Shown piece by piece: positions 58,635 to 60,886 of a stretch of DNA of 60,886 bases (position 1 is the first letter of the stretch; every line of letters begins with the position of its first letter). Both the position numbers and the translations under genes were made by a program. The stretch lies in NCBI RefSeq assembly GCF_003334385.1, contig NZ_QOWN01000028.1, one strand, 5' to 3'. The notes under the pieces are model-generated. The model did not search any database. It was not told the DNA's origin and saw nothing but the letters and a program-made list of their open reading frames with translations. The stretch comes from Escherichia coli. Its GTDB lineage: Bacteria; Pseudomonadota; Gammaproteobacteria; Enterobacterales; Enterobacteriaceae.

Positions 58635-60743
58635 ATGTCAACCGGATTACGTTTCACACTGGAAGTGGACGGCCTGCCGCCGGATGCTTTTGCGGTGGTT
58701 TCCTTTCATCTGAACCAGTCACTCTCTTCGCTCTTTTCCCTCGATCTCTCCCTGGTCAGCCAGCAGTTTCTCTCCCTTGAATTTGCGCAGGTGCTGGACA
58801 AAATGGCCTACCTGACGATATGGCAGGGCGATGAAGTACAGCGCCGGGTGAAAGGCGTGGTGACCTGGTTTGAACTCGGGGAGAACGACAAAAACCAGAT
58901 GCTGTACAGCATGAAGGTGCACCCGCCGCTGTGGCGTGCCGGTCTGCGCCAGAACTTCCGTATCTTCCAGAACGAGGACATCAAAAGCATCCTCGGCACG
59001 ATGTTGCAGGAAAACGGGGTGACCGAATGGAGTCCGCTGTTCAGCGAGCCGCATCCTTCCCGTGAGTTTTGTGTCCAGTACGGTGAGACTGATTACGATT
59101 TCCTGTGCCGGATGGCGGCGGAGGAAGGCATCTTCTTTTATGAGGAGCATGCTTACAAAAGTACCGACCAGAGCCTGGTGCTGTGCGACACAGTCCGCCA
59201 TCTGCCCGAATCTTTTGAAATCCCATGGAACCCGAACACCCGTACCGAGGTGAGCACCCTCTGCATCAGCCAGTTCCGCTACAGCGCACAAATCCGCCCT
59301 TCTTCCGTGGTGACCAAAGACTACACCTTTAAACGCCCCGGCTGGGCCGGACGTTTTGAACAGGAAGGCCAGCACCAGGACTACCAGCGCACGCAGTATG
59401 AAGTGTATGACTACCCCGGACGTTTCAAGGGTGCCCACGGGCAGAACTTTGCCCGCTGGCAGATGGACGGCTGGCGAAACAATGCAGAAACCGCGCGGGG
59501 AATGAGTCGCTCGCCGGAGATATGGCCGGGACGACGAATTGTGCTGACGGGGCATCCGCAGGCGAACCTGAACCGGGAATGGCAGGTGGTGGCAAGTGAA
59601 CTGCACGGCGAGCAGCCGCAGGCGGTGCCGGGACGCAGTGGTTCAGGAACCACGCTGAATAACCACTTTGCGGTAATACCGGCAGACCGGACATGGCGGC
59701 CACAGCCGTTGCTGAAACCGCTGGTGGACGGCCCGCAGAGCGCCGTCGTGACGGGACCGGCAGGCGAGGAAATCTTCTGTGATGAACATGGCCGCGTGCG
59801 GGTGAAATTTAACTGGGACCGCTATAACCCGTCAAACCAGGACAGTTCATGCTGGATCCGTGTGGCACAGGCGTGGGCAGGCACCGGCTTTGGCAACCTG
59901 GCGATACCGCGAGTGGGTCAGGAGGTGATTGTGGACTTCCTCAACGGCGACCCGGACCAGCCGATTATTATGGGGCGTACCTACCACCATGAAAACCGCA
60001 CACCCGGCAGCCTGCCGGGGACGAAGACGCAGATGACCATTCGTTCGAAAACCTATAAGGGCAGCGGGTTTAATGAACTGAAGTTTGACGATGCGACAGG
60101 GAAAGAACAGGTCTACATCCACGCGCAGAAGAACATGAACACCGAGGTGCTGAATAACCGCACCACTGATGTGATAAACAACCATGCTGAAACCATTGGC
60201 AACAATCAGATGATTGCGGTTACCAACAATCAGATACAGACGGTGGGTGTCAACCAGATAGAGACGGTGGGCAGTAACCAGATAATTAAAGTGGGTTCTG
60301 TTCAGGTGGAAACGATTGGACTTGTTCGTGCGCTGACCGTGGGCGTGGCGTACCAGACGACGGTAGGTGGCATTATGAACACTTCGGTGGCTCTGATGCA
60401 GTCCTCGCAGATCGGTTTGCATAAATCGTTGAGGGTCGGGCTGGGTTATGACGTCAAAGTCGGAAATAACGTTACCTTCACCGTTGGTAAAACGAAAAAG
60501 GATGATACCGGGCAGACCGCGATTTACTCCGCCGGTGAGCATCTGGAGCTCTGCTGTGGTAAGGCAAGGCTGGTGCTGACGAAGGACGGACAAATTTTTC
60601 TCAACGGCACAAAAATTCATTTGCAGGGTAAGGAGCAGGTTAATGGTGACTCACTGTTGATTAACTGGAACTGTGCAGCCTCGAAATCCCCACCGAAGAC
60701 CCCTGATGAAAAGCAGGATACGCCGGATATGAGAGAGTACTGA
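58635..60743 (+). CDS. vgrG: VgrG-like protein (type VI secretion spike / Rhs-associated Val-Gly-repeat protein)
   Basis: ORF track 58599..60743; ATG at 58635 has GGAGG 7 nt upstream (702 aa). The C-terminal part shows Val-Gly dipeptide repeats (..IQTVGVNQIETVGSNQIIKVGSVQVETIG..). I believe this is the ORF annotated as part of the rhsE pseudogene region in K-12, but cannot confirm without a search. Confidence 0.8.
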   Translation: MSTGLRFTLEVDGLPPDAFAVVSFHLNQSLSSLFSLDLSLVSQQFLSLEFAQVLDKMAYLTIWQGDEVQRRVKGVVTWFELGENDKNQMLYSMKVHPPLWRAGLRQNFRIFQNEDIKSILGTMLQENGVTEWSPLFSEPHPSREFCVQYGETDYDFLCRMAAEEGIFFYEEHAYKSTDQSLVLCDTVRHLPESFEIPWNPNTRTEVSTLCISQFRYSAQIRPSSVVTKDYTFKRPGWAGRFEQEGQHQDYQRTQYEVYDYPGRFKGAHGQNFARWQMDGWRNNAETARGMSRSPEIWPGRRIVLTGHPQANLNREWQVVASELHGEQPQAVPGRSGSGTTLNNHFAVIPADRTWRPQPLLKPLVDGPQSAVVTGPAGEEIFCDEHGRVRVKFNWDRYNPSNQDSSCWIRVAQAWAGTGFGNLAIPRVGQEVIVDFLNGDPDQPIIMGRTYHHENRTPGSLPGTKTQMTIRSKTYKGSGFNELKFDDATGKEQVYIHAQKNMNTEVLNNRTTDVINNHAETIGNNQMIAVTNNQIQTVGVNQIETVGSNQIIKVGSVQVETIGLVRALTVGVAYQTTVGGIMNTSVALMQSSQIGLHKSLRVGLGYDVKVGNNVTFTVGKTKKDDTGQTAIYSAGEHLELCCGKARLVLTKDGQIFLNGTKIHLQGKEQVNGDSLLINWNCAASKSPPKTPDEKQDTPDMREY

Positions 60744-60809
60744 TCCCGTACCTGTTCGGTATTCAGTAACAAACCAGCATTAAAAATAAACAGAAGAAGG
60801 AATTGAATC

Positions 60810-60886
60810 ATGAGCGGAAAACCAGCGGCGCGTCAGGGAGATATGACTCAGTATGGCGGTCCCATTGTCCAGGGTTCGGCAGGTGT
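60810..60886 (+). CDS. rhsE: Start of a PAAR-domain Rhs-family protein, 3'-truncated by the window edge
   Basis: ATG at 60810 opens MSGKPAARQGDMTQYGGPIVQGSAGV.., the conserved PAAR-type N-terminus of Rhs proteins. Only 25 codons lie in the window, so intactness of the core cannot be judged. Confidence 0.65.
   Translation, partial: MSGKPAARQGDMTQYGGPIVQGSAG

What the first reader, a model, noticed from the sequence alone, without database searches (positions are those of the whole stretch)
58635..60886. Orphan vgrG followed by a PAAR/Rhs start, with no type VI secretion core in the window
A 702-aa VgrG-like ORF is followed 66 bp later by an ORF opening with the PAAR-type Rhs N-terminus. This is the standard spike-plus-toxin arrangement of type VI secretion effector islands, yet none of the 60 kb upstream encodes secretion machinery. 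The locus could be a decaying remnant, a reservoir for recombination with other rhs loci, or a module used by a distant secretion system.
Basis: partly seen in the sequence, partly recalled or inferred. Interest (0 to 1): 0.55.

Follow-up and report, generated by a model that had tools for sequence, protein, structure and literature searches.

The report
E. coli vgrE–rhsE toxin-spike island
This is the long-known vgrG–rhsE "orphan" locus of Escherichia coli, an intact spike gene plus the first 25 codons of an Rhs toxin cut off by an assembly break; it is normally served by a type VI secretion system encoded about 1.3 Mb away, so the finding is correct but ordinary.

Summary
An intact 702-aa VgrG (58635-60743, +) is followed, 67 bp later, by the first 25 codons of an RHS core protein (60811-60886). 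The upstream 58.6 kb is ordinary E. coli chromosome (ydbA' … ansP-yncG-yncH) with no type VI secretion (T6SS) gene.

This is the classical RhsE locus. The literature already calls its spike gene the "vgrE orphan locus".

- **Window end:** it falls exactly where several draft assemblies break, because the rhs core is multi-copy.
- **Downstream in relatives:** strains with the identical VgrG or a near-identical locus carry an intact 1378-1407-aa Rhs with a PxxxxDPxGL-delimited toxin tip. An immunity-type gene (Imm-NTF2-2 in one, ydcD in the other) and orphan tip or H-rpt transposase remnants follow.
- **Distant machinery:** the closest complete genome (KE58, 99.9% identical, colinear) has a full T6SS at tRNA-Asp (aspV), about 1.26 Mb away.
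- **Population:** of 5426 complete E. coli genomes, 2734 carry the locus. 69% of these have that system's tssC, against 14% of non-carriers.
- **Not decaying:** dN/dS is 0.06-0.15. K-12 shows the decayed state, a 4.4-kb deletion that removes vgrG and the 5' half of rhsE.

Already known; low interest.

The parts
57816..58634 (+). AT-rich (30-41% GC) spacer between yncH and vgrG. It holds only weak sigma-70-like sites (58252-58279, 58587-58614). The left end of the K-12 deletion lies at 58567/58568.
   Evidence: Composition; promoter scan no better than shuffles, 6 sites found against 4.0±1.7 expected; K-12 alignment stops at 58567.
58635..60743 (+). vgrG of the RhsE locus ('vgrE'), the T6SS spike protein. 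It is 702 aa and intact, with a GGAGG ribosome-binding site at 58625-58629.
   Evidence: It is 90% identical to the VgrG inside the KE58 T6SS cluster. The exact protein is indexed in 101 blocks of the assembly collection. dN/dS is 0.06-0.15. Closest solved relatives are 7q5p and 4mtk.
60227..60274 (+). Tandem 24-nt units encoding the octapeptide Val-Gly repeats (NQIQTVGV / NQIETVGS) of the gp5-like beta-helix. This copy has 8 fewer residues here than the cluster VgrG.
60676..60810 (+). Locus-specific tail of VgrG plus the 67-nt spacer that carries the rhs ribosome-binding site. It has no DNA homology to the cluster vgrG and is single-copy in E. coli genomes. A 143-nt stretch spanning it (60670-60812) served as the marker.
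   Evidence: marker found in 2734 of 5426 genomes with 2780 places.
60811..60886 (+). First 25 codons (plus 1 nt) of an RHS element core protein. This is a single PAAR-like repeat with a literal P-A-A-R at residues 5-8. It is cut by the end of the window, which is the end of a contig.
   Evidence: contig ends coincide.

Best explanation
The region is the left part of the E. coli RhsE element: the auxiliary ('orphan') T6SS effector module vgrG(E)-rhsE inserted between yncH and ydcD.

Proposed mechanism:
1. VgrG(E) trimerises into a gp27/gp5-like spike.
2. The spike sits on the Hcp tube and baseplate of the EHEC-type T6SS encoded at tRNA-Asp (aspV), about 1.3 Mb away.
3. The downstream Rhs protein attaches to the spike tip through its short N-terminal PAAR-like peptide, residues 1 to about 47. 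This is the counterpart of Tse5-NT.
4. The YD-repeat cocoon of Rhs carries a polymorphic C-terminal toxin that is released after the PxxxxDPxGL motif.
5. The complex is fired into neighbouring bacteria, and a small downstream immunity gene protects kin.

Shown here: the gene identities, the intactness of vgrG, the synteny, the existence of the distant T6SS in the closest complete genome, and the population-level co-occurrence.

Inferred: that this strain has the T6SS, that its rhs is intact beyond the contig break, and the physical VgrG-Rhs coupling and secretion.
For: - VgrG domains and family scores are well above the cut-offs.
- The Rhs start is identical to full RHS core proteins.
- Synteny ansP-yncG-yncH-vgrG-rhs-ydcD matches the RhsE locus of KE58 and K-12.
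- The literature names this locus a vgrG island or vgrE orphan locus of the EHEC T6SS (PMC7216683; PMC12981562).
- KE58 is colinear and 99.9% identical, and carries tssA, B, C, E, F, G, J, K, tssH and tssM, icmH/DotU (the TssL counterpart), two hcp genes and a second vgrG+rhs at aspV.
- VgrG(E) is 90% identical to that cluster's VgrG, and about 96% identical over the N-terminal 520 residues (substitution counts).
- Co-occurrence: 1877 of 2734 carriers have that tssC, against 387 of 2692 non-carriers, an odds ratio of 13. The 580 genomes that hold only the divergent tssC type (60-80% identity band) add no carriers.
- Purifying selection: dN/dS 0.06 and 0.15.
- Strains with the identical VgrG or a near-identical locus have an intact 1378- or 1407-aa Rhs with PxxxxDPxGL, a tip, and an immunity-type gene.
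- Rhs residue 48 onward aligns with the Tse5 shell, which begins at P48 after N-terminal cleavage (8cp6_B, E=3e-18). Tse5-NT is described as a PAAR-like peptide needed for secretion (PMC10684867).
Against: - The source strain's genome is not available, so the presence of a T6SS and of an intact rhs, tip and immunity gene is extrapolated.
- 31% of carriers (857 complete genomes) have no tssC detectable even at about 65-70% DNA identity.
- One such genome, ATCC 8739, carries IS elements, a pco/sil island and only an rhsG fragment in the stretch where KE58 holds the aspV T6SS.
- K-12, whose flanks are 99.98% identical to the window, has deleted vgrG. That it also lacks a T6SS rests on my own knowledge and was not tested here.
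- There is no expression evidence. The upstream spacer is AT-rich, with no promoter signal above chance.
- The co-occurrence statistic is not corrected for phylogeny.
Confidence: 0.7

Rival explanations
1. Stranded orphan. The source strain has lost, or never had, the cognate T6SS. In that case vgrG-rhs is currently non-functional cargo. It would be retained by drift, or because the linked immunity gene is still useful against Rhs-armed kin.
For: - 857 of 2734 carriers have no detectable tssC.
- ATCC 8739 keeps vgrG plus an RHS core gene annotated as intact, while the stretch where KE58 holds the aspV T6SS carries IS elements and a pco/sil island.
- The window's flanks are 99.98% identical to K-12, a lineage I know to be T6SS-less (own knowledge, not tested here).
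Against: - Most carriers (69%) have the T6SS, and so does the closest complete genome.
- vgrG shows clear purifying selection and no lesion.
- Very divergent T6SS types would escape the DNA-level tssC search.
Confidence: 0.22
2. The locus matters mainly as a sequence reservoir. The paralogous vgrG and rhs copies would exchange segments by homologous recombination or gene conversion, so the locus diversifies spikes and toxin tips rather than acting as a module in its own right.
For: - Twelve of the 15 SNPs that separate the window from KE58 in the last 12 kb lie in 59822-60023. At 11 of those 12 sites, KE58's copy matches its own cluster vgrG.
- Genomes that match the yncH-vgrG-rhs-start query hold a median of 3 places matching part of it.
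- Toxin tips differ between strains with near-identical vgrG: a 120-aa tip carrying DUF4329 against a 149-aa tip followed by ydcD.
- Orphan tip fragments lie downstream, as in the C-terminal displacement model (PMC2935791).
Against: Recombination is a property of the family, not an alternative function, and it is compatible with the main explanation. Purifying selection on the whole ORF argues for a functional protein.
Confidence: 0.06
3. Decaying remnant: vgrG and rhs here are pseudogenes on their way out.
For: K-12 has exactly such a remnant at this site. EDL933's rhsE is fragmented (PMC12981562).
Against: The 2109-nt ORF is uninterrupted. The identical protein appears in over 100 blocks of the assembly collection. 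dN/dS is 0.06-0.15. The apparent truncation of rhs is a contig end shared by independent assemblies.
Confidence: 0.02

Closest known systems
E. coli RhsE element with its vgr gene ('vgrE'; EDL933 Z2253-Z2262)
   Same: Same chromosomal site (ansP-yncG-yncH on the left, ydcD on the right in relatives), same gene order, and a VgrG that matches TIGR01646 'vgr_GE'. It is described as a vgrG island or vgrE orphan locus in PMC7216683 and PMC12981562. The Vgr name comes from Wang, Zhao and Hill 1998 (cited in PMC2660368). That paper is not held in the library, so that this locus is one of the namesakes rests on my own knowledge.
   Different: Nothing essential. This allele differs from every complete genome in the collection by at least 12 nt over 3.4 kb, but it is identical in several draft assemblies. 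The toxin tip of this strain is not visible.
E. coli K-12 rhsE pseudogene (b1456)
   Same: Same locus, with flanks 99.98% identical.
   Different: K-12 lacks 4429 bp: the last 67 nt of the spacer, all of vgrG, and the first 2187 nt of rhsE. The window has the undeleted, ancestral-looking state.
P. aeruginosa VgrG1c-Tse5 (PA2685-PA2684)
   Same: A vgrG is followed directly by an Rhs whose N-terminus is only a roughly 47-residue PAAR-like peptide, then a DUF6531 plug. E. coli Rhs residues 48-169 align to the Tse5 shell from P48 (E=3e-18). There is no Eag or DUF1795 chaperone gene between vgrG and rhs.
   Different: Different species and toxin tip. The residue before the cleavage-site proline is N47 here and K47 in Tse5. 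N-terminal cleavage has not been tested for E. coli Rhs.
vgrG+rhs at the end of the aspV T6SS main cluster (RhsG-type; KE58 3,699,953-3,706,402)
   Same: Paralogous module. VgrG is 90% identical and the Rhs core 74% identical.
   Different: That copy is adjacent to hcp and the tss genes. The window's copy is 1.26 Mb away, with a different VgrG tail and a different Rhs N-terminal peptide.

Membership tests
VgrG/TssI T6SS spike | gp27-like hub domain (Phage_GPD) | tested here: met
   PF05954, E=1.3e-74, residues 29-327.
VgrG/TssI T6SS spike | gp5-like OB fold followed by a beta-helical Val-Gly repeat region | tested here: met
   PF04717 at 7.8e-15 and PF22178 at 4.4e-26; octapeptide repeats at 60227-60274.
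VgrG/TssI T6SS spike | Curated family score above cut-off | tested here: met
   TIGR03361 625.5 bits (cut-off 186.35); TIGR01646 445.8 bits (cut-off 121.8).
VgrG/TssI T6SS spike | T6SS core genes in the same genome, and T6SS-dependent export | not testable with these tools
   The source genome is not available. The condition is met in the closest complete genome, KE58, and in 69% of carriers.
PAAR domain (spike-sharpening cone) | About 90-aa domain with three PAAR repeats; significant PF05488 match | tested here: not met
   Pfam PAAR_motif reaches only E=0.098 over 19 residues. Residues 2-29 match only the third repeat of 4jiv_D, 4jiw_D and SalCis10 (E=0.008-0.24). By residue 48 the sequence is already aligned to the Tse5 shell. 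So this is PAAR-like, a single repeat.
PAAR domain (spike-sharpening cone) | Literal PAAR motif followed by xGD | tested here: met
   K-P-A-A-R-Q-G-D at residues 4-11.
RHS element core protein (NF041261) | YD-repeat core of about 1250 aa ending in PxxxxDPxGL, followed by a variable tip | not testable with these tools
   Only 25 codons lie in the window. The feature is met in L002, which has the identical VgrG (1378 aa, 2787 bits, PLQQIDPMGL at 1249), and in KE58 (1407 aa).
RHS element core protein (NF041261) | Conserved N-terminus of the family | tested here: met
   The 25 visible residues are identical to the first 25 residues of the L002 and KE58 RHS core proteins.
Auxiliary vgrG-effector-immunity module | Cognate immunity gene directly downstream of the effector | not testable with these tools
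   This lies beyond the window. In relatives the downstream gene is ydcD (KE58) or an Imm-NTF2-2 protein (L002).

The most novel reading that the evidence does not exclude
About a third of E. coli genomes that carry this vgrG(E)-rhs module have no detectable T6SS sheath gene. If the module stays intact and under selection in those genomes, and this strain may be one of them, it could have a T6SS-independent role. Examples would be retention driven by the linked immunity gene, or release of Rhs by another route. A related open point is how a single-repeat PAAR-like peptide caps a trimeric spike.
Probability: 0.08. Interest if true: 0.45.

Novelty: already known. Interest (0 to 1): 0.1.

Why it matters
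It matters little as a discovery. Orphan vgrG-rhs islands remote from the T6SS core are textbook, and this particular locus is, to my knowledge, one of the two for which Vgr proteins were named.

The practical value lies in three points:
- The truncated rhs is an assembly break at a multi-copy repeat, not a biological truncation.
- The window shows the intact counterpart of K-12's rhsE pseudogene.
- The population count (69% of carriers have the cognate tssC and 31% have none detectable) gives a usable prior on whether such a module is armed in an unsequenced strain.

Tried and rejected
- **Original Vgr paper.** I tried to read Wang, Zhao and Hill 1998 (PMC107404) to cite the vgrE/vgrG description directly. 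It is not held, so I relied on secondary citations and the name of TIGR01646.
- **T6SS in the matching draft assemblies.** I looked up the KE58 TssC protein, hoping to see whether the draft assemblies with the identical VgrG also carry the T6SS. The tool returns only the longest contigs and none of those assemblies appeared, so this was inconclusive.
- **Full PAAR domain.** I tested for one at the Rhs start with Pfam. The match was not significant, so I downgraded the claim to 'single PAAR-like repeat'.
- **Promoter, terminator, RNA and repeats.** The promoter and terminator scan of 57500-60886 was no better than shuffles. Rfam found nothing in the finding's region. The repeat search found only the Val-Gly units.
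- **714-aa reading.** I considered the reading from the ATG at 58599 and rejected it. It has no ribosome-binding site, lies upstream of the paralogue homology boundary, and RefSeq uses 702 aa.
- **Not attempted.** I did not predict a structure, because family assignment by sequence is unambiguous.

Full report
**1. What is in the sequence**

The ORF at 58635-60743 (+) encodes 702 aa from an ATG preceded by GGAGG at 58625-58629. Pfam finds the three VgrG modules: Phage_GPD at 1.3e-74, Phage_base_V at 7.8e-15 and Gp5_trimer_C at 4.4e-26. NCBIfam gives TIGR03361 at 625 bits and TIGR01646 'vgr_GE' at 446 bits, both far above their cut-offs. The closest solved relatives are the P. protegens and P. 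aeruginosa VgrG1 spikes, 7q5p and 4mtk. The 24-nt tandem units at 60227-60274 encode the Val-Gly octapeptide repeats that gave the family its name.

It reads MSGKPAARQGDMTQYGGPIVQGSAGV and then the window ends. These 25 residues are identical to the start of full-length 'RHS element core proteins'.

**2. Where it comes from**

The window is E. coli chromosome. It is colinear, without a single gap, with strain KE58 (NZ_CP141075.1) at 99.91-99.96% identity over all 60,886 bases. The annotated genes run from inside the ydbA autotransporter pseudogene through pdxI, hrpA, trg, opgD, tehAB, hicAB, ydcSTUV, patD, curA, mcbR, pqqU, yncE, ansP, yncG and yncH to vgrG and rhs.

The neighbourhood ansP-yncG-yncH | vgrG-rhs-ydcD-yncO-ISAs1(H-rpt)-ydcC is the classical RhsE element.

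**3. The truncation is an assembly artefact**

The exact 702-aa protein is indexed in 101 blocks of the public assembly collection. In several independent draft assemblies (L006-L009) the contig ends at the very base where the window ends, 76-77 nt into rhs. The rhs core is multi-copy. Genomes that match the 57500-60886 query hold a median of 3 places matching part of it, so short-read assemblers break there. The window's first 241 nt likewise lie in an internally repeated part of ydbA. The window is probably a whole short-read contig.

**4. What lies downstream in relatives**

- In L002, which has the identical VgrG, the next gene is an intact 1378-aa Rhs. It carries a DUF6531 plug, YD repeats, an RHS core and PLQQIDPMGL at residue 1249, followed by a 120-aa tip carrying DUF4329. 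An Imm-NTF2-2 protein and a 196-aa orphan core-end/tip fragment follow.
- In KE58 the Rhs is 1407 aa with a different 149-aa tip, followed by ydcD.

The tip is polymorphic even among strains with near-identical vgrG, so this strain's toxin cannot be inferred.

**5. The distant machinery**

KE58 carries a complete T6SS between tRNA-Asp (aspV) and yafV, about 1.26 Mb from the RhsE locus. It comprises hcp, tssB, tssC, tssE, tssF, tssG, tagH, tssJ, tssK, icmH/DotU (the TssL counterpart), tssH, vasI, tssA, tssM, a VasL-domain protein and a second hcp, with a second vgrG+rhs at one end. Its tssC is 99.7% identical in O157:H7 strains, so this is the EHEC-type cluster.

VgrG(E) is 90% identical to the cluster VgrG. 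It is nearly identical over the N-terminal 520 residues, about 96% from the substitution counts, and it diverges in the last 170 or so. DNA homology runs from 58624 to 60675. This fits a shared hub and tube interface with a cargo-specific tail.

**6. Population test**

I used a single-copy marker (60670-60812, the VgrG(E) tail plus spacer) and the KE58 tssC. The union came from a concatenated query.

| Measure (of 5426 complete E. coli genomes) | Count |
|---|---|
| Genomes with the marker | 2734 |
| Genomes with the KE58-type tssC | 2264 |
| Genomes with either | 3121 |
| Genomes with both (derived) | 1877 |

So 69% of carriers have the tssC, against 14% of non-carriers, an odds ratio of 13. 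This is not corrected for phylogeny.

A more sensitive blastn search adds 580 genomes that hold only a tssC in the 60-80% identity band (about 73% in the rows shown). The union rises by the same 580, so essentially none of those genomes carries the marker. The module therefore goes with one T6SS type, or with none detectable, which is the case for 857 genomes (31% of carriers).

ATCC 8739 is one example. It has vgrG(E) plus an RHS core gene. In the stretch where KE58 holds its aspV T6SS, just beyond yafV, it carries IS elements, a pco/sil island and an rhsG fragment.

**7. Not decaying here, but decayed in K-12**

Against the KE58 allele, dN/dS is 0.06 (10 synonymous and 2 non-synonymous changes). 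Against the cluster paralogue it is 0.15.

K-12 MG1655 has flanks 99.98% identical to the window but carries a clean 4429-bp deletion. The deletion starts after window position 58567, removes vgrG, and ends 2187 nt into rhsE. That is the known rhsE pseudogene. The window shows the intact state.

**8. Recombination**

Twelve of the 15 differences between the window and KE58 in the last 12 kb fall in 59822-60023. At 11 of those 12 sites, KE58's vgrG(E) carries the base of its own cluster vgrG. This looks like a roughly 200-bp gene-conversion patch in KE58.

**9. The PAAR claim**

Pfam PAAR_motif is not significant (E=0.098). Against solved structures, residues 2-29 match only the third PAAR repeat of 4jiv_D (E=0.008), SalCis10 and 4jiw_D. 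From residue 48 (PVNPLLGAK…) the protein aligns with the Tse5 shell, whose chain begins at P48 after N-terminal cleavage (8cp6_B, E=3e-18).

[quoted passage not shown] The E. coli Rhs start is therefore best called a single-repeat PAAR-like peptide. The window shows the first half of it.

**10. Comparison with the literature, and verdict**

- rhsE downstream of its own vgrG is described for EDL933 (PMC7216683).
- A 2026 paper names the 'vgrE orphan locus (Z2253-Z2262)' as part of the EHEC T6SS (PMC12981562).
- Vgr stands for Val-Gly repeat, from Wang, Zhao and Hill 1998 (cited in PMC2660368).
- PAAR-Rhs toxins of E. coli have been shown to act through the T6SS (Ma et al. 2017, as summarised in PMC6730261).

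The finding is real, correctly identified, and already known. The only open point for this window is whether its strain still has the T6SS. My estimate is roughly 70% yes, from the population figure and the closest complete genome.

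Noticed in passing
window 1-241 and 60811-60886: Both ends of the window sit in repeated DNA. The start lies in internally repeated ydbA autotransporter sequence (87-88% self-similar copies in KE58). The end lies at the multi-copy rhs core, at the same base where several draft contigs end. The window is probably a complete short-read contig.
   Followed up: partly
window 59822-60023 (compared with L001 and L012): There is a cluster of 12 SNPs against KE58 in about 200 bp of vgrG. KE58's copy matches its own T6SS-cluster vgrG at 11 of the 12 sites, which suggests gene conversion between paralogues in KE58.
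   Followed up: yes
window 58567/58568 (K-12 L013 5903-5905): This is the left endpoint of the 4429-bp K-12 deletion that removed vgrG and the 5' half of rhsE. The two alignment blocks overlap by 3 bp at the junction.
   Followed up: yes
E. coli genome hits H3-H6 (region homologous to window 57500-60886): Several strains have IS1A, IS1B or IS903B inserted within the yncH-vgrG-rhs-start stretch. The exact insertion sites were not mapped.
   Followed up: no
L025 (ATCC 8739, NC_010468.1 3,719,984-3,753,750): In the stretch just beyond yafV, where KE58 holds its aspV T6SS, ATCC 8739 has IS elements, a pco/sil copper-silver resistance island and only an rhsG core fragment. The strain still carries vgrG(E) plus an RHS core gene at the RhsE locus. 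Overall, 857 of 2734 carrier genomes lack a detectable tssC.
   Followed up: partly
window 22729-22880 (-) and 22106-22169 (-): Rfam matches to the sok antitoxin RNA (109.7 bits, next to hokB) and to the RydC sRNA (92.5 bits). These are the expected K-12 features of this region.
   Followed up: no
window about 34320-35528 (+), 39949-40587 (+), 20376-21376 (-); coordinates converted from KE58 annotation: These stretches hold insQ (an IS200/IS605-type TnpB) with a degraded tnpA next to it, the hicAB toxin-antitoxin pair, and the frameshifted gapC pseudogene. All are as in K-12-like genomes.
   Followed up: no
L002 2292-5095; L007 2291-2761 (homologous to window about 50925-53730): In some strains with the identical VgrG, mcbR is shortened (173 or 156 aa instead of 221) and pqqU is split in two. 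The window matches the intact KE58 versions.
   Followed up: no
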